From: Candidatus Omnitrophota bacterium
Lineage (GTDB): Bacteria > Omnitrophota > Gorgyraeia > Duberdicusellales > 4484-171
DNA: 64,000 nucleotides
Direction of reading: 5' to 3'
Assembly (NCBI GenBank): GCA_041652815.1
Contig: JBAZGN010000004.1
Span: 15,890 to 79,889, forward strand
Position numbers and translations under genes: made by a program. Numbering within the stretch: position 1 is the first letter of the stretch; the number at the start of each line of letters is the position of its first letter. The notes under the pieces are model-generated. The model saw only the letters and a list, made by a program, of their open reading frames with translations. It did no database searches and had not been told where the DNA came from. Below, piece after piece: positions 29,826 through 36,867 of this stretch.

Positions 29826-30213
29826 ATGAACCCTGAAAGGGCTATCTAGATAGTTAAAAAAGGCTCCGACTCTCAATTTTTCCCCCCACCATTGTTAAAA
29901 TATTTTTAAAAATCGTGAAGCGAAAGAAGTAGGTTCTGATTTTATCAGGGGTTTTTGAGGTTGAGGAAAAGCCTATAAGGGTGTATACTGATCAATACCA
30001 GAAATCCTTGAATTAAAGTCAGTGATTTCTAGTATTTATTGCCCCGTCGTATATCGAGCGAAGGCGGGATTAATGGGGTGCGGCTACATTGCGAAATTTT
30101 ATACATTCATATCAAAATTGGATAAAAGTTATGGGTATACCTTTGCTGAAAGCGGTGAAGGTTTTTTAGTTTTTGGGCAGATATTATAAAAAATTATTAT
30201 TGAAAGGAGAAGC

Positions 30214-30561
30214 ATGGAAGATGTTAAAAAAATAACCGAAAAAATTAAAAAATTTCGCGACGATCGAGATTGGATGCAATTTCACGATCCTAAAAATATG
30301 GCTGTTTCAATTATTCTCGAAGCTTCTGAGTTGCTAGAGCACTTTCAATGGAAAACAATTGAGGAGGTGGAGGAGTATTCAAGGCAAAACAAAGGCGAGA
30401 TTAGAGACGAAATTGCTGACATTGCTTTATATCTTTTTGAATTAGCGGATAATCTAGGAATTAATTTAATCGATGCAATGGAGCAAAAACTCAAAAAAAA
30501 TGAAATGAAATATCCAATTGAAAAAGCTAAAGGAAAGCATACTAAATATAACAAATTATAA
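30214..30561 (+). CDS. MazG-like nucleoside triphosphate pyrophosphohydrolase (small, single-domain)
   Basis: 115 aa; 'EASELLEHFQWK' and 'EIADIALYLFELAD' EExxE/ExxD metal-binding helices; strong GGAG RBS. Confidence 0.7.
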   Translation: MEDVKKITEKIKKFRDDRDWMQFHDPKNMAVSIILEASELLEHFQWKTIEEVEEYSRQNKGEIRDEIADIALYLFELADNLGINLIDAMEQKLKKNEMKYPIEKAKGKHTKYNKL

Positions 30562-30564
30562 TTC

Positions 30565-33009
30565 ATGAGACTTTACTCTGGAAGCTCTGCCCAATTTATC
30601 CAAGATGTCATTCAAAATCAAATAGCAGAAAAATTAAAACTAGCTTTTTTTGATTACTTTCGTTTTTATCCCTCACCCGGAGAAATAAATTCATGGAGAA
30701 ATTCTTTGAGATCGATTTCTCAGACTTTTCAATATGCAAATTTATTAGACCACGGAATAATCCTTGAATACCAGTTACCGTTGACTTCCAAAAGATTAGA
30801 TTGCTTAATTTGTGGTAAAGATAAAGAAAATATAGATAATTCTGTTATTGTGGAGCTAAAGCAATGGGATAAATGTGAGGAGGCTATTGGAGAGAATGAG
30901 GTTTTGACTTGGCTGGGCGGCGCTAAAAGAGAAGTGCTGCATCCTTCAGTTCAAGTCGGTCAATATAAGATGTATTTAGAAGATACACATACTGCTTTTA
31001 ATGTTGACGAGAATCCTATTAGATTAAATGCATGTACCTACTTACATAACTATAGTTATTATTCCGCGGATGTTATTTTTTCTCGTAAATTTAAACAAGC
31101 ATTAGATTCCTATCCATTGTTTACAGCAGACGATGTTGACAAAATGAAAGATTATTTGCTAGACAGATTAGCTTCAGGAATGGGCATGGAAGTTCTCAAA
31201 AGAGTGGAGAAAAGCAAATACAAGCCAAGTAAGAAATTAATGGATCATGTTGGGTCGGTAGTAAAGAATAAATTGAAAGGTAAAGACGTAAAAATCTTAG
31301 GAGGAGTTCAAAATGACTATATCCTTCTAGATGAGCAGTTAATTGCGTACGATAAAGTTTTAGCTTTGGTAAAAAGGGGTTTTCATGATAAACAAAAGAA
31401 TATCCTAATAATTAGTGGTGGTCCAGGAACAGGTAAATCGGTCATAGCATTGAAACTCTTAGCTGATTTAAATGAAATGCATTACAACGCGCAATATGCA
31501 ACTGGTTCAAAGTCATTTACGGAAACATTACGAAAAATTGTTGGGACAAGAGCTGCTGCACAATTCAAATATTTTTTGAGTTATGCTGATGCCCAAAGTA
31601 ACGAAATAGATATATTAATTTGTGATGAAGCTCATAGGATACGCGAAAAAACGGTCCGCAGATACGGTAGACCTTCCGGTATAAAACAAGTCGAAGAGAT
31701 AATCCAAGCCGCAAAAGTAGTAGTGTTTCTAATTGATCAAGATCAAATTGTCCGCCCCGGAGAAATAGGTTCCAGTGATTTAATTAAAGAATATGCAAAT
31801 AAACATATTTGTAAAATATCGGAATATGAATTAGCGGCTCAATTTAGGTGTAATGGTTCTGACGCTTTTATAAATTGGGTGAACAATACTTTGGTTATTA
31901 GGAAAACTGCTAATGTTATATGGGATTTGCATGAAGAATTTGATTTCAAAATATTTACATCGCCCTTTGAGCTAGAAAAGGCTATCAGAAATAAAGTAGA
32001 TAAAGGGTATACGGGCAGAGTAACTGCAGGTTTTTGTTGGGAATGGAACTATCCCAAGGAAGATGGTACCTTGATAGACGATGTTATAATCGGTGATTAC
32101 AAACGCCCCTGGGATGCTAAGCATGACGCAAAAAAACTTGCTTTAGGGATACCGAAGGCTTCATTTTGGGCCTACGATCCTAATGGTATAAATCAAATAG
32201 GATGTATCTATACGGCTCAGGGATTTGAGTTTGATTATGTTGGTGTAATCTTTGGTGAAGATCTTAAGTATAACTTTGATGAGCAGAACTGGGTAGCTCA
32301 CAAAGAAAATTTTGCTGACTCTCAAGTTTTAAGAGCGAAGGATGAAGACTTACTTAAATACCTAAAAAATATTTATCGTGTTCTCTTGACCAGAGGCATA
32401 AAGGGTTGTTATGTTTATTTCATGGACAAGGATACCGAACGTTTTTTTAAATCGCGTATCGAAGGTGTACCTATTTATAAAGAAGAAACGCTTAAGCTTT
32501 CTGATTTAGTTACCGTGGAAGATCAATTGATCCATAAAATTGAGCAAGATATTGCCGAAAATCTTAAATATGTAGAGTATTTACCAGTTTATTCTTTAGA
32601 GGTTGCTGCCGGTAATTTTGGTCAAGCCATGAGTAGCGAAGAAGAGGGATGGATCAAGACAGATATTGGTAAAAAGTTGGATAAACGAATGTTTGTTGCA
32701 AGAGTTGTTGGTCATTCGATGGAGCCTTTAATTCCGGAAGGCAGGTACTGTATTTTTAGGTGGGGGGTTGAGGGGACTAGACAAAATAAGATTGTTTTAG
32801 TTCAGCATAATAGCATTGCTGATCCTGATACTGGAGGCAAATATACAGTTAAGAAATATACGAGCAAGAAAAAAATTGTTGATGGTGTAGCATGGGAGCA
32901 CGAAGCAATAAAACTTTTGCCATTAAATACAGCTTACAAGCCTATAGATATTCCTAATTCAGAAGAGGGTAGCTTTATTGTGATAGCTGAATTTATTAAG
33001 GTATTGTAA
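30565..33009 (+). CDS. Fusion: N-terminal PD-(D/E)xK-like region + DUF2075-type P-loop/DEAH SF1 helicase-like ATPase + C-terminal LexA/CI-type S24 autopeptidase domain
   Basis: D79 and E97-x-K99 in hydrophobic strands; Walker A 'GGPGTGKS' (285-292); Walker B 'ICDEAH' (352-357); 'YTAQGFEFDYVGVI' and 'VLLTRG' DUF2075 hallmarks; C-terminal 'VAAG' (A682-G683), 'GHSMEP' (S718), 'TVKKY' (K763/764) with LexA-like spacing. Confidence 0.75.
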   Translation: MRLYSGSSAQFIQDVIQNQIAEKLKLAFFDYFRFYPSPGEINSWRNSLRSISQTFQYANLLDHGIILEYQLPLTSKRLDCLICGKDKENIDNSVIVELKQWDKCEEAIGENEVLTWLGGAKREVLHPSVQVGQYKMYLEDTHTAFNVDENPIRLNACTYLHNYSYYSADVIFSRKFKQALDSYPLFTADDVDKMKDYLLDRLASGMGMEVLKRVEKSKYKPSKKLMDHVGSVVKNKLKGKDVKILGGVQNDYILLDEQLIAYDKVLALVKRGFHDKQKNILIISGGPGTGKSVIALKLLADLNEMHYNAQYATGSKSFTETLRKIVGTRAAAQFKYFLSYADAQSNEIDILICDEAHRIREKTVRRYGRPSGIKQVEEIIQAAKVVVFLIDQDQIVRPGEIGSSDLIKEYANKHICKISEYELAAQFRCNGSDAFINWVNNTLVIRKTANVIWDLHEEFDFKIFTSPFELEKAIRNKVDKGYTGRVTAGFCWEWNYPKEDGTLIDDVIIGDYKRPWDAKHDAKKLALGIPKASFWAYDPNGINQIGCIYTAQGFEFDYVGVIFGEDLKYNFDEQNWVAHKENFADSQVLRAKDEDLLKYLKNIYRVLLTRGIKGCYVYFMDKDTERFFKSRIEGVPIYKEETLKLSDLVTVEDQLIHKIEQDIAENLKYVEYLPVYSLEVAAGNFGQAMSSEEEGWIKTDIGKKLDKRMFVARVVGHSMEPLIPEGRYCIFRWGVEGTRQNKIVLVQHNSIADPDTGGKYTVKKYTSKKKIVDGVAWEHEAIKLLPLNTAYKPIDIPNSEEGSFIVIAEFIKVL

Positions 33010-33011
33010 AT

Positions 33012-33704
33012 ATGATTAAATCCGGAGATGTTATTTCTTATTTAGATATGTGCAAAGAAGAAGGAGTTAACCTCCAGCGAGGAATGAATTATCGATTACG
33101 AAGTGGATTTAGTGTTATTCTTATGAGCGTAAGGCTCGGTGCGCCATATGCTGATAAGGTTGAAGAAAATGGTAAAATTCTAATTTATGAAGGTCATGAT
33201 ATTCCTCAAACAAGTGGGGGGCCTATTCCGAAAAAAGTAGATCAGCCTAAGAATAATCCCGGAGGCAGCTTAACTCAAAATGGCTTATTTTATAAAGCGG
33301 CTTTAGAATATAAAGATAAGCGAAAAGATCCAGAGTTAGTTAAGGTCTACGAGAAAATACGATCAGGAATTTGGGCATATAACGGCATATTTAAATTGAT
33401 AGACTCATGGCAAGAGAATAGTAACGCAAGAAAGGTTTTTAAATTCAAGCTTAAGATGGTAGAGGAAGTTCAAAGAAGTGTGATTAAGCAAAAAGATATC
33501 GAGCACAATAGACTAATTCCAACTTCTGTGAAACTAGAAGTTTGGAAACGAGATAAAGGTAAATGTGTGGTGTGTGGTAGTGCTGATAATTTGCATTTTG
33601 ATCATATAATTCCTTATTCGAGAGGAGGGTCTTCGTTGGTTGCAAAAAACGTTCAATTGTTGTGTGCAAGACATAATATTGGGAAACGAGATAAGATTGA
33701 ATAA
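33012..33704 (+). CDS. HNH endonuclease with N-terminal putative modified-base-binding (SRA/YDG- or PUA-like) domain; candidate type IV restriction enzyme
   Basis: C-terminal 'CVVCGSADNLHFDHIIPYSRGG...NVQLLCARHN' Zn-HNH motif; N-terminal about 170 aa with 'G..hxYxG' core reminiscent of SRA; starts 3 nt after the helicase gene. Confidence 0.6.
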   Translation: MIKSGDVISYLDMCKEEGVNLQRGMNYRLRSGFSVILMSVRLGAPYADKVEENGKILIYEGHDIPQTSGGPIPKKVDQPKNNPGGSLTQNGLFYKAALEYKDKRKDPELVKVYEKIRSGIWAYNGIFKLIDSWQENSNARKVFKFKLKMVEEVQRSVIKQKDIEHNRLIPTSVKLEVWKRDKGKCVVCGSADNLHFDHIIPYSRGGSSLVAKNVQLLCARHNIGKRDKIE

Positions 33705-34244: not shown

Positions 34245-34550
34245 ATGAAGGTATTAAAAGGTATTTTATCGGAGAGTAAAGAATACTATCTTAGCATTAA
34301 GCGAAAGATAGAAAAAAGGCTCACAGAGCTACCTAAAGGTAGTATTAAGGAGCGAAGAATTTCAGGACAAAAATATTATTACCTGCAACAGCGAGTCGGG
34401 AAGAAGATATCACACAAGTATTTAGGGAAGCAAAAGCCAGAGCTTATTATAAAACAAATAAAAGAACGGGATGTTTTGAAACTTGAGTTAAAAAAAGTAA
34501 TCGCGTCCCTTAAAATGATACGAAAGTCAGAAGGCAAAAAACATGGTTGA
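34245..34550 (+). CDS. Small basic protein, putative partner/antitoxin of the downstream nucleotidyltransferase
   Basis: 101 aa, Lys/Arg-rich; strong RBS; stop overlaps the downstream start (ATGGTTGA). Confidence 0.5.
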   Translation: MKVLKGILSESKEYYLSIKRKIEKRLTELPKGSIKERRISGQKYYYLQQRVGKKISHKYLGKQKPELIIKQIKERDVLKLELKKVIASLKMIRKSEGKKHG

Positions 34551-35232
34551 ATCAGTTAATAAAATACTTAAGGTATTTGCTGACAATGGTCTTTTTGAAG
34601 AAGGAGTAGAGCTTATTGGAAGCTGGTGTTTCCACCTCTATCAAAAACATCTGGGCGCAAAAAGTTTTCCATTGAGGACGCAAGATATTGATTTTCTGAT
34701 ACCTAATCCTTATCGTGGGAAGGAGCATAAAGATTTTATAGACCAGCTAAAGGAATTGGGTTTTAATTACGATTTTAGTAATAATGGGTCTTTATATCTT
34801 TGGAACGCTGATTTTAAAATAGAATTTATAACTCCCCTAAAGGGCCGTGGATTAGAAAAGAGCATAAAGATTAAGGCGTTTGGTTTTAAAGCCATACCGC
34901 TAAGATTCGTTGATTTATTGTTAAACCACCCTATCAATATAAACGATAATGGCATTAATATTAAAATACCTAATCCAGCTAATTTTTGTCTTCACAAACT
35001 TATAGTCGCATCGCGTAGAAAAAAATTAGACAAAGCTTCAAAGGATTTACAACAGGCAATTTGTACCTCTGTAATCTTGGATAAACAAGAAGTTAAGAAA
35101 TTATTTGAGACTTTGCCAAAAAAATGGAAAAAAGCGATTTTAAAAATGCTAGAAAAGTCCAAAAAAGAATTGCCTTTATTACTTGAAGAAATAAATCAAT
35201 TAGAATTTACACTACAAGGTACTAAAAAATAA
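34543..35232 (+). CDS. Nucleotidyltransferase-fold protein, AbiEii/DUF1814-like (putative type IV TA toxin / Abi effector)
   Basis: 'IGSWCFHLY...RTQDIDFLI' resembles the G[GS]...R.S.DIDF nucleotidyltransferase motif; translationally coupled to the upstream small gene. Confidence 0.5.
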   Translation: MVESVNKILKVFADNGLFEEGVELIGSWCFHLYQKHLGAKSFPLRTQDIDFLIPNPYRGKEHKDFIDQLKELGFNYDFSNNGSLYLWNADFKIEFITPLKGRGLEKSIKIKAFGFKAIPLRFVDLLLNHPININDNGINIKIPNPANFCLHKLIVASRRKKLDKASKDLQQAICTSVILDKQEVKKLFETLPKKWKKAILKMLEKSKKELPLLLEEINQLEFTLQGTKK

Positions 35233-35328: not shown

Positions 35329-36867
35329 ATGAAAAAAATCATTTTTTTCGCTTTAATCTTTATCTGTTCAATTCCGTTGTGTCTTGCCGAAAATTTAACG
35401 CAGGATAAAACAATCAAAGTAGAAGTAGGCCAGAATTTTACGATTACTCTTGAAGCTAACGCTACTACCGGCTACGAGTGGCAATTTGCTAAGCCGCTGG
35501 ATGAAAATAGTTTTAAGTTAATAAGTTCAGAGTATGTAGCGGACGAAACAAATCGCATTGGCGCAGGCGGCAGGCAGATTTGGATTTTAAAAGCGCTTAA
35601 GGCAGGAGAGACAGTTATTTCCTTTAAATACGTGCGGCCGTGGGAAAAAGATACTCCGCCGGCAAAAGAAGAATCATTCTTGATTAATGTTACAGGCGCA
35701 GAAATTACTTCTAGTTCTATCAAGCCGGAGTTTTCAGAGATCTTGAAAAGCGAATGGCAGGCGTATAAAAGCGATAAGCCTAATTTTACTGGCGGGCTTG
35801 CCATGCAAATACTTTCACCTAAGGGTGATTATTTTATAGCAACAGATATGGGTGATAATGTTACTAATGCTCATCATTTTCGTATAGCGAGCGTAACTAA
35901 AACCTTCACTGCTGCAGGAATAATGCTGCTTAATCAAAGAGGCGCGCTTAATATTGACGATAAGATTACGGATAATATTCCAGGCAAGGGCGTTGCCTAT
36001 ATACCTGACACTCCCGATTACGATATACCTTATAAAAATGATATTACTATTCGAATGCTTCTTATGCATCGGGCAGGCATATTTGATATTACAAACAATA
36101 ATATTCCCGATAATGAATTCTCGCATAACCAGCCTTACGTCGGGCAAAGTTACCTTGATTATATGGAGGAGAAAGACAAAAACCACACTTTTACCTTTGA
36201 TGAATTAGTAGGCGTTAATGCCAGTAACCAGTTATCTTTTTTTAAACCCGGAACAGCTTATCATTATTCCGATACTGGGTATTCTATGCTTGGAAAAATT
36301 ATTGAAAGAGTTTCCGGTAAGTCGTATGCTGATTTTATTAAAGATGAATTATTGGTACCAAACGGCCTGCTTGATACCACCCTTCCTGCCGCCGGCGCTG
36401 ACCAGGCTTTACCCGAACCTTTTATCAAAGGATATGTTTGGATGGCTGGCGAGAGCGAGGAGGTTACTAAATCTAACATGTCCCCGCATGTTGCTGAAGG
36501 GAATATAGCAACTACCTCAAAAGACCTTATTGCCTGGTGTAAAAAATTATTCCATGGCGAAGCCGGCTTAACCAGAGAGACAATTGATATGATGGAGGCC
36601 GGTATCAAGAAAGACGGCAGCCCGGATTCAAGTTATGGCCTGGGTATTTCATACGCCGTGGGTGCCGGTTATGGGCATGCCGGAGCGCACGAAGGGTATC
36701 TCACGCTGATGTATTACAATCCGGATACCGATACTTCCTATGTTATGCTTACCAATATGTGGAATGTCGAAAATGGCCTGGAATCTATTACGGCCGAGAT
36801 AAAGGCAATGATAGCAATCGCCAATAAGATTTTAAAGAAAATGGAAACTGATACCGTCCGGAAATAG
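35329..36867 (+). CDS. Secreted fusion: chagasin-like protease inhibitor (I42) domain + β-lactamase/transpeptidase-fold serine hydrolase
   Basis: Signal peptide; 'NATTGYEW' chagasin motif; 'FRIASVTKTF' S-x-x-K motif; 512 aa. Confidence 0.7.
   Translation: MKKIIFFALIFICSIPLCLAENLTQDKTIKVEVGQNFTITLEANATTGYEWQFAKPLDENSFKLISSEYVADETNRIGAGGRQIWILKALKAGETVISFKYVRPWEKDTPPAKEESFLINVTGAEITSSSIKPEFSEILKSEWQAYKSDKPNFTGGLAMQILSPKGDYFIATDMGDNVTNAHHFRIASVTKTFTAAGIMLLNQRGALNIDDKITDNIPGKGVAYIPDTPDYDIPYKNDITIRMLLMHRAGIFDITNNNIPDNEFSHNQPYVGQSYLDYMEEKDKNHTFTFDELVGVNASNQLSFFKPGTAYHYSDTGYSMLGKIIERVSGKSYADFIKDELLVPNGLLDTTLPAAGADQALPEPFIKGYVWMAGESEEVTKSNMSPHVAEGNIATTSKDLIAWCKKLFHGEAGLTRETIDMMEAGIKKDGSPDSSYGLGISYAVGAGYGHAGAHEGYLTLMYYNPDTDTSYVMLTNMWNVENGLESITAEIKAMIAIANKILKKMETDTVRK

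What the first reader, a model, noticed from the sequence alone, without database searches (positions are those of the whole stretch)
30565..33009. Nuclease-helicase (DUF2075-type) fused to a complete LexA/CI-type S24 self-cleavage module: candidate SOS-gated defence effector
The 814-aa ORF combines three parts:
- A PD-(D/E)xK-like N-terminus (D79 and E97-x-K99 in hydrophobic strands).
- A P-loop/DEAH ATPase core with the DUF2075 hallmarks 'GGPGTGKS', 'ICDEAH', 'YTAQGFEFDYVGVI' and 'LTRG'.
- A C-terminal 135 residues that reproduce the LexA autoproteolysis module.

The LexA-like module has 'EVAAGNF' with an Ala682-Gly683 bond (nt 32608-32613), which matches the LexA 'VAAG' cleavage site. The nucleophile Ser718 sits in 'VVGHSMEP', 35 residues after the Gly, compared with 34 in E. 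coli LexA. The general-base Lys lies in 'YTVKKY', matching the LexA 'TVKRL' lysine.

In LexA, lambda CI and UmuD this module self-cleaves when bound by RecA*-ssDNA. Here it would clip a 132-aa C-terminal domain off a nuclease/helicase body. That suggests an autoinhibited defence enzyme activated by DNA damage or phage-replication-induced RecA*, which I do not recognise as a described defence architecture. The gene sits in a tight operon with a MazG-like gene (4-nt gap) and an HNH nuclease (3-nt gap), in a lower-GC island.
Basis: partly seen in the sequence, partly recalled or inferred. Interest (0 to 1): 0.9.

Follow-up and report, generated by a model that had tools for sequence, protein, structure and literature searches.

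The report
Defence nuclease-helicase with LexA-type self-cleaving tail
A bacterial anti-phage-type nuclease-helicase carries at its end the same self-cutting module that the SOS repressor LexA uses to sense DNA damage, and this particular module turns out to be bolted onto many kinds of restriction and defence enzymes, which points to an undescribed protein-level link between the DNA-damage signal and bacterial immunity.

Summary
ORF 30565-33009 (814 aa, Omnitrophica MAG) has three parts:
- a conserved D…ExK nuclease-like N-terminus;
- a DUF2075/SLFN-g3 SF1B helicase (Pfam E = 2e-91);
- a C-terminal S24 module (Pfam above threshold; model pLDDT 87; top 39 PDB fold hits are all LexA, λ CI or UmuD).

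Ser718 and Lys763 are invariant. A682-G683 aligns with the λ CI and UmuD scissile bonds.

1. The conserved partner is the upstream DCTPP1-like MazG gene (55/80 loci, bacteria and archaea), not the SRA-HNH gene (2/80).
2. S24 is an accessory, present in 16-17 of 80 loci and gained or lost at least 18 times. One locus carries an independent, canonical S24.
3. This S24 subtype (about 1,600 clusters) is fused to Type I, IIG/ISP, III and II restriction enzymes, DruE, DrmMI and Nhi-like helicases, with the dyad kept in 90/90.

I found no paper describing this. The direction is untested.

The parts
30214..30561 (+). MazG-like / DCTPP1-type NTP pyrophosphatase gene (115 aa). It is the conserved partner of the nuclease-helicase and ends 3 nt before it.
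   Evidence: PF12643 E = 6.3e-20. PDB homologues: 4qgp pyrophosphatase 7.6e-26, and dCTP pyrophosphatase 1 / RS21-C6 2.8e-17. ExxE...ExxD acidic motifs can be read in the translated sequence. Adjacent to the core in 55/80 related loci, mostly overlapping by 4 or 1 nt.
30565..33009 (+). Whole 814-aa ORF: nuclease-like domain + SF1B (DUF2075/SLFN-g3) helicase + S24 self-cleavage module.
   Evidence: 100% identical to an Omnitrophica MAG protein (P0001). Full-length model pLDDT 75.6.
30565..31260 (+). N-terminal nuclease-like domain (about residues 1-232) with invariant E68, D79, E97-L-K99-Q100. The PD-(D/E)xK reading is consistent with this but not independently confirmed.
   Evidence: Invariant columns in 64 and in 31 diverse relatives. 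In the model, helix 38-58 is followed by strands 64-70, 77-85 (D79) and 91-99 (E97, K99), with pLDDT mostly 84-94. No Pfam or PDB sequence hit.
31396..32427 (+). DUF2075 / Schlafen-group-3 SF1B helicase core (residues 278-621) with Walker A GGPGTGKS and Walker B DEAH.
   Evidence: PF09848 E = 2.2e-91. Foldseek top hits are SLFN11, Dda, Dna2, RecD2, Upf1 and Ighmbp2. Partial PADLOC hits to PDC-S41, AbiO and Nhi.
32461..32532 (+). Disordered linker (residues 633-656) between the helicase and the S24 module. S24-less relatives end at about residue 633.
   Evidence: pLDDT below 50 for 633-656. Relatives of 620-630 aa match residues 1-633.
32533..33006 (+). LexA/CI/UmuD-type S24 autopeptidase module (residues 657-814), including the cleavage-site region.
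   Evidence: PF00717 38 bits. Model pLDDT 86.8. Top 39 PDB fold hits are all LexA, lambda CI or UmuD. hhalign to LexA, CI and UmuD at 87-92% probability.
32608..32613 (+). Predicted scissile bond Ala682-Gly683 within ...YLPVYSLEVAA|GNF.
   Evidence: Aligns with lambda CI A111-G112 and UmuD C24-G25. P1 is Ala or Cys in 112/112 relatives and P1' is Gly in 95/112. Gly in 84/90 across all partner classes.
32716..32718 (+). Ser718, the predicted nucleophile (G-H-S-M-E-P).
   Evidence: Invariant in 112/112 and 90/90. Aligned to LexA S119, CI S149 and UmuD S60.
32851..32853 (+). Lys763, the predicted general base (Y-T-V-K-K-Y).
   Evidence: Invariant in 112/112 and 90/90. Aligned to LexA K156, CI K192 and UmuD K97.
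33012..33704 (+). SRA-HNH gene (230 aa), a likely modification-dependent (type IV) restriction endonuclease. It is a neighbour rather than a conserved component.
   Evidence: HNH PF01844 30 bits (above threshold). SAD_SRA 24.9 bits (below the 30.7 threshold). Weak PDB hits to the SUVH9 SRA domain and IscB HNH. Adjacent in only 2/80 related loci (L049, L067), both S24-bearing.

Best explanation
The gene encodes a Nhi-like defence enzyme: an N-terminal D...ExK nuclease-like domain plus an SF1B DUF2075 helicase. It works with a conserved upstream DCTPP1-like nucleotide pyrophosphatase. Onto this core is fused a catalytically intact LexA/lambda-CI-type S24 self-cleaving module, joined by a flexible linker. 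The module belongs to a distinct S24 subtype that is attached almost exclusively to restriction and defence nucleases, helicases and methylases.

The most likely mechanism is as follows. When RecA-ssDNA filaments (RecA*) form, the S24 domain docks in the filament groove and its Ser718/Lys763 dyad cuts the Ala682-Gly683 bond. This separates a 132-aa S24 domain from the 682-aa enzyme body. I judge it more likely that this switches the enzyme OFF than ON. The body is left with a roughly 50-residue disordered tail ending in ...EVAA-COOH, the same end that makes cleaved LexA a ClpXP substrate. The nuclease-helicase would therefore be removed while the cell repairs its own DNA. That would be a hard-wired form of restriction alleviation, an anti-autoimmunity fuse.

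Shown here: the domain architecture, the fold, the conserved dyad and cleavage site, the accessory and portable nature of the module, and its partner repertoire.
Inferred: that it self-cleaves, that RecA* is the trigger, and the direction of the switch.
For: Architecture and fold.

Catalytic competence under selection:
- Ser and Lys are invariant in 112/112 close relatives and in 90/90 proteins with different partners.
- P1 is Ala or Cys in all of them. P1' is Gly in 85-93%.
- The cleavage-site region aligns with lambda CI and UmuD.

Regulatory add-on rather than core part:
- Relatives at 70% identity lack it but keep the MazG partner.
- At least 18 gains or losses on a core tree.
- An independent fusion of a canonical S24 to the same core in L067.

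Portable module on defence enzymes:
- The profile finds 1,576 clusters at E <= 1e-10.
- Partners are DUF2075 helicases, Type ISP/IIG, Type I, III and II restriction enzymes, DruE-like proteins, DrmMI, GIY-YIG, HNH and TnsA-like nucleases.

RecA* link:
- The S-8 Phe and the K-3 aromatic residue that form the pocket for RecA F203 in LexA, UmuD and CI are conserved (F710 in 112/112; Y/F760 in 112/112).
- Acidic D753 and D/E755 are near-invariant or invariant.
- No S24 fusion in 13 archaeal loci against 17/67 bacterial loci (p = 0.06).

OFF direction:
- The topology is that of LexA and CI (functional domain N-terminal, S24 C-terminal), where cleavage inactivates.
- LexA-like proteins carry ClpXP C-degrons next to the cleavage site (PMC5742171).
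- P3-P1 here is V-A-A, as in LexA. That VAA is the LexA degron is my own knowledge of Neher et al. 2003.
- The linker is disordered.
- The partners are mainly restriction-modification enzymes, for which damage-induced restriction alleviation is an established need (PMC4231737 and PMC11109961).
Against: - No experiment exists. Self-cleavage, the trigger and the outcome are all inferred.
- Sequence similarity to LexA is weak. phmmer finds nothing, and profile E-values are 0.01-0.8.
- The RecA-contact set is only partly kept. L113 of LexA corresponds to Ala712. The acidic patch is displaced by a 5-residue insertion.
- 15% of close relatives have Thr or Ser at P1'. Whether these cleave is unknown.
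- Some LexA-like proteins cleave without RecA (IrvR, PMC7101444).
- 20 of 112 relatives would end in ...AAC rather than ...AA, a poorer ssrA-like end.
- One partner class, the DrmMI methylase, is not a nuclease.
- Cleavage-activated S24 proteins exist (UmuD), and so do damage-activated defence systems (AbpAB, PMC10732053), so the ON direction is not excluded.
- The anti-phage role of this particular MazG + nuclease-helicase family is itself untested.
Confidence: 0.42

Rival explanations
1. The S24 domain holds the nuclease-helicase in an autoinhibited state. RecA* formed on phage replication intermediates or on damaged DNA triggers self-cleavage, which releases an active effector that destroys phage and possibly host DNA, giving abortive infection.
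For: - The same structural evidence for an intact S24 switch applies.
- UmuD is a precedent for activation by S24 cleavage (established knowledge; structures).
- Defence systems activated by host DNA damage exist (AbpAB, PMC10732053).
- Nhi and related helicase-nucleases respond to phage SSB and replication intermediates.
- The human DUF2075 relative SLFN11 kills cells after replication stress (PMC6765204).
- Some Nhi homologues are toxic when expressed, so autoinhibition could be useful.
Against: - The same S24 subtype sits on Type I, IIG/ISP, III and II restriction-modification enzymes, which discriminate self by methylation and must act on DNA at entry, before any RecA* exists.
- The majority of the core family lacks S24, so it needs no such release.
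- The S24 domain is tethered by a disordered linker of at least 24 residues, with no evidence of docking on the body.
- The LexA/CI-like topology normally gives inactivation.
Confidence: 0.25
2. The S24 module is a self-cleaving or self-associating module that does not respond to RecA*. It might cleave constitutively (maturation). It might respond to another cue, such as the enzyme's own stalled or engaged state on DNA, pH, or a phage protein. Or it might serve mainly as a dimerisation or RecA-filament-targeting domain.
For: - RecA-independent autocleavage is documented for the LexA-like IrvR (PMC7101444).
- The RecA-contact residues are only partly conserved, and there is a subtype-specific insertion before the catalytic Lys.
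- LexA, CI and UmuD C-terminal domains dimerise (established knowledge).
- DruE-type helicase-nucleases compete with RecA for ssDNA intermediates (PMC13192584), so filament targeting is conceivable.
Against: - The invariant Ser-Lys dyad and the conserved Ala/Cys-Gly site argue against a purely structural or binding role.
- The two hydrophobic RecA-pocket positions and an acidic pair are conserved.
- All 17 S24-bearing loci are bacterial, although this is only p = 0.06.
Confidence: 0.2
3. It is not a defence gene. The MazG-like/DCTPP1-like enzyme sanitises the dNTP pool, and the Dna2-like nuclease-helicase processes damaged forks. Together they form a DNA-repair pair whose activity is tuned by the SOS signal through S24, as with UmuD.
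For: - The domain order, nuclease then SF1B helicase, is that of Dna2, which is among the fold hits.
- DCTPP1 is a house-cleaning enzyme (established knowledge).
- An S24 module is a natural SOS device.
- The pair is not in PADLOC as a system.
Against: - The distribution is patchy and consistent with horizontal transfer across bacteria and archaea, with variable neighbourhoods.
- Neighbours include R-M systems, AbiEi, Dsr1, toxins and transposases.
- The S24 subtype's other partners are restriction enzymes, DruE and DrmMI.
- The closest characterised DUF2075 proteins are anti-phage (Nhi, AbiO).
- In this window the gene is next to an SRA-HNH restriction gene.
Confidence: 0.08

Closest known systems
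LexA, lambda CI and UmuD (MEROPS family S24, Pfam PF00717)
   Same: The same fold, the same Ser-Lys dyad and the same Ala/Cys-Gly cleavage-site region about 35 residues upstream of the Ser. The LexA/CI-like order is kept, with the functional domain N-terminal and S24 C-terminal. P3-P1 is VAA, as in LexA. The Phe and aromatic residues of the RecA F203 pocket are kept.
   Different: - There is no HTH DNA-binding domain. The cargo is a roughly 630-aa nuclease-helicase.
- It is a distinct subtype that plain sequence search against the PDB does not reach.
- It has its own hallmarks: W696, D-P-[DE]-T-G-G before Y-T-V-K, and W777-x-H779.
- The acidic RecA-contact patch is displaced.
Nhi (nuclease-helicase immunity, S. 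epidermidis SERP2475), 'Nhi-like' proteins and AbiO
   Same: A single polypeptide with an N-terminal nuclease-type domain followed by a DUF2075 (PF09848) SF1B helicase. Nhi is a proven anti-phage enzyme that acts on phage replication.
   Different: - PADLOC Nhi and AbiO models match only part of the helicase (residues 249-482, E about 1e-14).
- The N-terminal domain is not detectably related.
- Nhi has no MazG-like partner and no S24 tail. Its variable C-terminus is a glyoxalase/bleomycin-resistance-like domain.
Restriction alleviation of Type I enzymes (ClpXP degradation of EcoKI HsdR after DNA damage)
   Same: The same proposed physiological logic: remove a translocating defence nuclease when the host's own DNA is damaged or unmodified (PMC4231737 and PMC11109961). 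HsdR-like and other R-M enzymes carry this S24 subtype.
   Different: In EcoKI no S24 domain is involved, and ClpXP recognises the stalled enzyme directly. Here the signal would be read by a fused autoprotease. This is an inference.
Human SLFN11 and other Schlafen group 3 proteins
   Same: A homologous helicase domain (PF09848; SLFN11 is the top fold hit). There is a functional link between ssDNA or replication stress and the protein's action.
   Different: SLFN11 has an N-terminal tRNase, no S24 module and no partner pyrophosphatase. Regulation is by ssDNA binding and phosphorylation, not by autoproteolysis.
DCTPP1 / RS21-C6 (for the upstream gene)
   Same: All-alpha MazG-like NTP pyrophosphatase fold family. 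Clear sequence homology (E = 2.8e-17) with the acidic motifs kept.
   Different: It is a prokaryotic 115-aa protein translationally coupled to a nuclease-helicase. The substrate is unknown. A role against modified phage nucleotides is only a guess.

Membership tests
Peptidase S24 (LexA-like autopeptidases) | Match to the family HMM above the curated threshold | tested here: met
   PF00717 at residues 674-804: 38 bits against a gathering score of 23.3, E = 1.5e-9. 89/90 proteins of the subtype also match.
Peptidase S24 (LexA-like autopeptidases) | Beta-rich catalytic domain fold superposable on LexA, CI and UmuD C-terminal domains | tested here: met
   Model pLDDT 86.8. Foldseek top 39 PDB hits are all LexA, lambda CI or UmuD, with TM (target) 0.6-0.73. 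Type I signal peptidases come next.
Peptidase S24 (LexA-like autopeptidases) | Ser-Lys catalytic dyad at the homologous positions | tested here: met
   S718 aligns with LexA S119, CI S149 and UmuD S60. K763 aligns with K156, K192 and K97. Both are invariant in 112/112 and 90/90.
Peptidase S24 (LexA-like autopeptidases) | Ala/Cys-Gly scissile bond in a cleavage-site region N-terminal to the catalytic core | tested here: met
   A682-G683 aligns with CI A111-G112 and UmuD C24-G25. Conserved as [AC]-G in 85% of close relatives and 93% of the wider subtype. The rest have Thr or Ser at P1'.
Peptidase S24 (LexA-like autopeptidases) | Actual self-cleavage (alkaline pH) and RecA*-stimulated cleavage | not testable with these tools
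   Needs purified protein. See next steps.
RecA*-responsive S24 proteins (LexA, UmuD, CI) | RecA-groove determinants: a hydrophobic pocket for RecA F203 (LexA F111, L113, V153) and an adjacent acidic patch (D150, D151, E152) (PMC9926225) | tested here: inconclusive
   F710 (S-8) is invariant and Y/F760 (K-3) is conserved. A712 replaces L113. The acidic residues D753 and D/E755 are conserved but separated from the Lys motif by a 5-residue insertion.
LexA repressor (SOS regulator orthologue) | N-terminal winged-helix DNA-binding domain | tested here: not met
   The N-terminus is a nuclease-like domain plus a helicase. No HTH family is detected. It is not a LexA orthologue.
DUF2075 / Schlafen group 3 helicase (PF09848), SF1B | Full-length HMM match with Walker A and Walker B (DEAH) motifs and an SF1B fold | tested here: met
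   PF09848 profile positions 1-354 of 354, E = 2.2e-91. GGPGTGKS and DEAH are present. Fold hits are SLFN11, Dda, RecD2, Dna2 and Upf1.
Nhi (nuclease-helicase immunity) family | Full-length similarity to the Nhi model, and demonstrated anti-phage activity | tested here: not met
   The PADLOC Nhi model matches only residues 249-482 (profile 178-378 of 470), E = 2.6e-14. The domain plan is the same but the family is different. Activity is not testable here.
PD-(D/E)xK nuclease superfamily (N-terminal domain) | D...(D/E)xK motif on the beta2-beta3 strands of an alpha-beta-beta-beta-alpha-beta core, with recognisable homology to a known member | tested here: inconclusive
   D79 and E97-x-K99 are invariant and lie on consecutive predicted strands after a helix. 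There is no Pfam hit even at E <= 5, and no PDB sequence hit. No domain-level fold search was possible.
MazG-like / DCTPP1 all-alpha NTP pyrophosphatases (upstream gene) | HMM match above threshold and homology to solved members | tested here: met
   PF12643 at 71.6 bits against a threshold of 27. PDB 4qgp 7.6e-26; DCTPP1/RS21-C6 2.8e-17.
SRA-HNH modification-dependent restriction enzymes (downstream gene) | SRA (5mC-binding) domain plus HNH nuclease domain | tested here: inconclusive
   HNH is above threshold (30.2 against 21.4). SAD_SRA is below threshold (24.9 against 30.7). There is a weak PDB hit to the SUVH9 SRA domain (E = 0.0035).

The most novel reading that the evidence does not exclude
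A dedicated subfamily of LexA-like S24 autoproteases is a portable, protein-level DNA-damage (RecA*) sensor. Bacteria have welded it onto the effectors of many unrelated immune systems: Type I, IIG/ISP, III and II restriction enzymes, Druantia DruE, DISARM DrmMI and Nhi-like nuclease-helicases. Immunity would then be switched post-translationally by the SOS signal. Most plausibly this is a general, built-in restriction-alleviation or anti-autoimmunity fuse that has not been described.
Probability: 0.45. Interest if true: 0.88.

Novelty: new variant of a known kind. Interest (0 to 1): 0.78.

Why it matters
How defence nucleases avoid destroying the host chromosome during repair and recombination is understood for very few systems. 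The main example is ClpXP-mediated alleviation of Type I enzymes.

A self-cleaving LexA-type module fused directly to restriction enzymes, Druantia and DISARM components and Nhi-like helicases would be a simple, general and directly testable answer. The enzyme itself would read the RecA* signal and be switched. If the switch turned out to be ON rather than OFF, it would be a new way of sensing infection.

Either way it widens the biology of S24 autoproteases beyond repressors and UmuD. It gives a compact, transferable damage-responsive degron or switch for engineering. It also defines an untested two-gene module, a DCTPP1-like pyrophosphatase plus a nuclease-helicase, found across bacteria and archaea.

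Tried and rejected
- Plain sequence search of the C-terminal 176 aa against the PDB found only nanobody noise. A profile of close full-length relatives did not reach LexA either. Only the domain profile, hhalign and the fold search did.
- N-terminal domain: no Pfam hit at E <= 5 and no PDB hit with a 31-sequence profile. PD-(D/E)xK therefore stays a motif-level reading.
- SRA-HNH as an integral third component was rejected: it is present in 2/80 loci. All three occurrences, including this window, are next to S24-bearing cores (p = 0.0096, tiny n).
- The idea that the fusion is a unique oddity or a mis-assembly was rejected. There are more than 100 clusters with the same architecture, and a 100% identical protein on a 209-kb contig.
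- I checked whether S24-less close relatives have a split S24 gene downstream. They do not: P0112 is a clean 624-aa gene followed by an unrelated gene on the opposite strand.
- Upstream 388-bp intergenic region: no Rfam family. By eye there is only a CTG-N8-CAG near a weak promoter-like site. This is not the E. coli SOS-box spacing, and I did not pursue it.
- No LexA or second S24 gene in the window by tblastn.
No paper describes S24 fused to helicases or restriction enzymes, or the MazG-like + DUF2075 pair. The library lacks most subscription journals, so absence is not proof.
- The AFDB fold library was unavailable.
The PDB-based results support the same conclusions independently.

Full report
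**1. What is in the sequence**

The ORF at 30565-33009 (+) is real and encodes 814 aa. A 100% identical protein is on record from a Candidatus Omnitrophica MAG, on a 209-kb contig. All the quoted motifs are present. The nucleotide positions given for Ala682-Gly683 (32608-32613) are correct.

Pfam finds the Schlafen-group-3/DUF2075 helicase domain over its whole length (residues 278-621, E = 2.2e-91). It also finds Peptidase_S24 at residues 674-804 (38 bits against a gathering score of 23.3).

The upstream 115-aa gene is MazG-like (PF12643). The downstream 230-aa gene has an HNH domain and a sub-threshold SRA domain. The gaps are 3 nt and 2 nt. GC is 0.34-0.37 over 30-36 kb, against about 0.39-0.43 on either side.

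**2. The S24 module is genuine and looks catalytically competent**

Sequence similarity to LexA is low. phmmer of the tail against the PDB finds nothing relevant. [quoted passage not shown]

Structure settles the question. The tail modelled with its family alignment gives pLDDT 86.8 and pTM 0.81. Its top 39 PDB matches are all LexA, lambda CI or UmuD C-terminal domains. They include the cleavage-site-containing fragments 2HNF and 1JHC and the RecA-bound complexes. Type I signal peptidases follow.

| This protein | LexA | lambda CI | UmuD |
|---|---|---|---|
| S718 | S119 | S149 | S60 |
| K763 | K156 | K192 | K97 |
| A682-G683 | not in the local alignment | A111-G112 | C24-G25 |

Probabilities are 87% for LexA and 91-92% for CI and UmuD.

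Conservation in 112 full-length relatives (57-72% identity):
- Ser718, Met719 and Lys763 are invariant.
- P1 is Ala (92) or Cys (20).
- P1' is Gly (95), Thr (13) or Ser (4).

In the full-length model the module hangs on a disordered linker (residues 633-656, pLDDT below 50).

**3. The body**

The helicase core matches SF1B helicases: SLFN11, Dda, Dna2, RecD2, Upf1 and Ighmbp2.

The N-terminal 230 residues are confidently modelled. They carry E68, D79 and E97-L-K99-Q100, which are invariant across relatives down to 31% identity. These residues lie on consecutive strands after a helix, which fits a PD-(D/E)xK nuclease. No HMM or PDB sequence match confirms this.

PADLOC models for Nhi, AbiO and candidate PDC-S41 hit parts of the helicase only. 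The protein therefore shares the Nhi domain plan but is not in the Nhi family proper.

**4. What is conserved around it**

Eighty related loci were taken from one-genome-per-species contigs.
- The nuclease-helicase core (residues 1-633) occurs across many bacterial phyla and several archaeal lineages.
- A MazG-like gene is adjacent in 55/80 loci. It is usually upstream and overlaps by 4 or 1 nt.
- That gene is a clear homologue of dCTP pyrophosphatase 1 / RS21-C6 (E = 2.8e-17) and of an uncharacterised pyrophosphatase, 4qgp (7.6e-26).
- The SRA-HNH gene is adjacent in only 2/80 loci.

The conserved unit is therefore a DCTPP1-like pyrophosphatase plus a nuclease-helicase. I found no description of this pair, and the MazG-like protein matches nothing in PADLOC.

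Neighbourhoods are variable. Around the 16 S24-bearing loci they include Dsr1, AbiEi, Type I and II R-M genes, other defence candidates and transposases. A 70%-identical S24-less relative sits beside a C5-methylase/R.HinP1I/Vsr cassette and a ParE toxin. This patchy, island-like pattern fits defence better than housekeeping repair.

**5. S24 is an accessory that comes and goes**
- Sixteen of the 80 loci carry this S24 tail.
- Relatives at 70-72% identity are clean genes of 622-631 aa without it.
- On a neighbour-joining tree of 198 cores, parsimony needs at least 18 gains or losses. The tree is rough, so this is only an indication.
- In the Parcubacteria locus L067 the same core carries a different, canonical LexA-type S24 tail (PF00717 E = 8e-22; 'APCG…GDSM…TIKEY'). 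The window's tail does not detect it by tblastn. It is therefore an independent fusion.
- None of the 13 archaeal loci has an S24 tail, against 17/67 bacterial loci (p = 0.06).

**6. The S24 subtype is shared by many defence enzymes**

This is the main new result. A profile of the tail was searched against 1.84 billion representative proteins. It found 2,435 hits at E <= 1e-3, 1,576 at E <= 1e-10 and 525 at E <= 1e-30. The module lies at or near the C-terminus of proteins from 160 to 1,969 aa. Many of the short ones are gene fragments.

Pfam on 90 of the best 150:

| Family | Members |
|---|---|
| Peptidase_S24 | 89 |
| DUF2075 / SLFN-g3 helicase | 17 |
| ResIII | 16 |
| Type_ISP_C | 10 |
| DEAD | 6 |
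| MZB | 6 |
| Eco57I methylase | 5 |
| RE_endonuc | 4 |
| AlwI | 3 |
| GIY-YIG | 3 |
| TnsA-like nuclease | 3 |
| Type I R C-terminal | 2 |
| MmeI methylase | 2 |
| Type I S | 2 |
| HNH | 2 |

No HTH family is among the top 25.

PADLOC on the same set:

| Model | Members | Best E |
|---|---|---|
| Type IIG REase-MTase | 9 | 1e-153 |
| DruE | 6 | 1e-137 |
| Type I REase-MTase | 5 | 1.5e-61 |
| Type III REase | 4 | 2.6e-76 |
| Type II REase | 3 | 5.5e-102 |
| Type II nicking endonuclease | 3 | 1.6e-25 |
| DrmMI | 2 | 1e-218 |
| Type I REase | 2 | 6.6e-91 |
| Nhi / AbiO / PDC-S41 | about 10 | 7.3e-16 to 4.3e-21 |

Individual architectures are shown. One 1,969-aa DEAD-HelicaseC-MZB-S24 protein lies in an operon with PLD-like and SNF2 helicase genes on a plasmid-like contig.

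Conservation across these 90 proteins:
- Ser and Lys are kept in 90/90.
- An Asp at K-10 and an Asp or Glu at K-8 are kept in 90/90.
- Phe at S-8 is kept in 88/90.
- An aromatic residue at K-3 is kept in 89/90.
- P1 is Ala or Cys in 90/90, and P1' is Gly in 84/90.

**7. How it most likely works**

*Shown.* An intact S24 autopeptidase with a canonical cleavage site is tethered to a defence-type nuclease-helicase. It is under selection and modular.

*Inferred, step 1: self-cleavage at A682|G683.* This follows from homology and from conservation of the dyad and the site.

*Inferred, step 2: RecA* is the trigger.*
- In the cryo-EM complexes, RecA F203 inserts into a pocket made by LexA F111, L113 and V153. 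The equivalents are UmuD Y52, L54 and F94, and CI F141, L143 and F189. An acidic patch just before the catalytic Lys contacts RecA K232, R243 and K245 (PMC9926225).
- Here the S-8 Phe (F710) and the K-3 aromatic residue (Y760) are conserved. D753 and D/E755 are conserved too.
- However, the L113 position is Ala, and the acidic residues are displaced by a five-residue insertion.
- I rate this as suggestive, not proven. IrvR shows that LexA-like proteins can cleave without RecA (PMC7101444).

I think shut-off is more likely, for five reasons.
1. Most partners are R-M enzymes. These discriminate self by methylation and must act on entering DNA, before any RecA* exists. What they are known to need after DNA damage is restriction alleviation (PMC4231737 and PMC11109961).
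2. The topology is that of LexA and CI, where cleavage inactivates.
3. LexA-like proteins carry ClpXP C-degrons immediately before the cleavage site (PMC5742171). Here the body would end in …S-L-E-V-A-A after a disordered tail of about 50 residues. That LexA residues 1-84 end in VAA and are degraded by ClpXP for that reason is from my own knowledge of Neher et al. 2003. That paper was not held.
4. Most members of the core family work without any S24, so the body does not need to be released.
5. A Nhi-like enzyme that attacks replication or recombination intermediates would be most dangerous to the host precisely during SOS repair.

Against shut-off:
- UmuD is activated by S24 cleavage.
- AbpAB is a defence system activated by host DNA damage (PMC10732053).
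- 20/112 relatives would end in AAC.
- DrmMI is a methylase.

My estimates are OFF 0.42, ON 0.25, RecA-independent or other role 0.20, and repair rather than defence 0.08.

**8. Comparison with what is known, and novelty**

The module is a member of family S24 by HMM, fold, dyad and cleavage site. It is not a LexA orthologue, because it has no HTH. The body is a DUF2075 SF1B helicase with the Nhi domain plan, but in a different family.

- DUF2075 with S24
- LexA-like with helicase
- S24 domain phrases
- restriction alleviation with LexA or S24
- MazG with helicase and defence
- DruE or Type ISP with LexA or peptidase
- Nhi with LexA

None found a description of S24 fused to helicases or restriction and defence enzymes. 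The library lacks most subscription journals, so prior mention cannot be excluded. Source annotations already label some relatives 'DUF2075 family protein/phage repressor protein C with HTH and peptidase S24 domain'. The domain co-occurrence is thus visible in databases but not interpreted.

I class this as a new variant of known kinds: a Nhi-like defence enzyme and an S24 switch. There is a substantial chance that it reveals a general regulatory layer.

**9. Verdict**

The interesting object is larger than the single gene. It is a defence-specialised S24 subfamily, of which this ORF is a clean example, and an uncharacterised pyrophosphatase + nuclease-helicase module. Interest 0.78.

Noticed in passing
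window 29826-30213: A 388-bp intergenic stretch upstream of the MazG-like gene. It has a terminator-like hairpin (30139-30162) and a T-run only about 50 nt before the start codon. No Rfam family matches. It could be the terminator of an unannotated small RNA, or an attenuator.
   Followed up: partly
window 34245-34550 and 34543-35232: A 101-aa ORF with no family overlaps by 8 nt a PF12281 (NTP_transf_8) nucleotidyltransferase gene. This looks like a toxin-antitoxin-like or minimal-nucleotidyltransferase pair at the edge of the low-GC islet.
   Followed up: no
window 35329-36867: A 512-aa protein that fuses a chagasin-family peptidase inhibitor (I42) domain to a beta-lactamase/PBP-like domain. 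This is an unusual combination.
   Followed up: no
L067:6001-8277 (Parcubacteria MAG): The same nuclease-helicase core carries a different, canonical LexA-type S24 tail ('APCG...GDSM...TIKEY', PF00717 E = 8e-22). This is an independent fusion. It is followed by a frameshifted SRA-HNH gene.
   Followed up: partly
window 33012-33704; L049:8385-9083; L067:8292-8965: SRA-HNH genes follow the core only where the core carries an S24 tail: 3/18 against 0/63 (Fisher p = 0.0096, very small n, not corrected for relatedness). In L049 the two genes overlap by 4 nt.
   Followed up: partly
relatives P0003, P0051, P0064, P0067, P0088, P0093, P0099-P0120 (column of G683): About 15% of close relatives have Thr or Ser instead of Gly at P1' ('AVAT', 'AAAS') while keeping the Ser-Lys dyad. 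It is unknown whether these cleave.
   Followed up: no
window 31273-31311 (residues 237-249): The window protein has a 13-residue insert (LKGKDVKILGGVQ) found in only 4 of 112 relatives. It lies in the low-confidence linker between the nuclease-like domain and the helicase.
   Followed up: no
L083:1407-13223: A 1,969-aa DEAD-HelicaseC-MZB-S24 protein lies in an operon with a PLD-like gene and an SNF2/ResIII helicase, on a plasmid-like contig (TrbM, LPD7). This is a DISARM- or Druantia-like system carrying the same S24 subtype.
   Followed up: partly
L076:5983-8391 (Vreelandella malpeensis): The S24-bearing gene is split into ORFs of 578 and 204 aa. This is a frameshift or pseudogene in a cultured isolate.
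   Followed up: no
P0121 (287 aa): The best-scoring hit to the S24 profile has two S24 stretches in tandem and no other domain.
   Followed up: no
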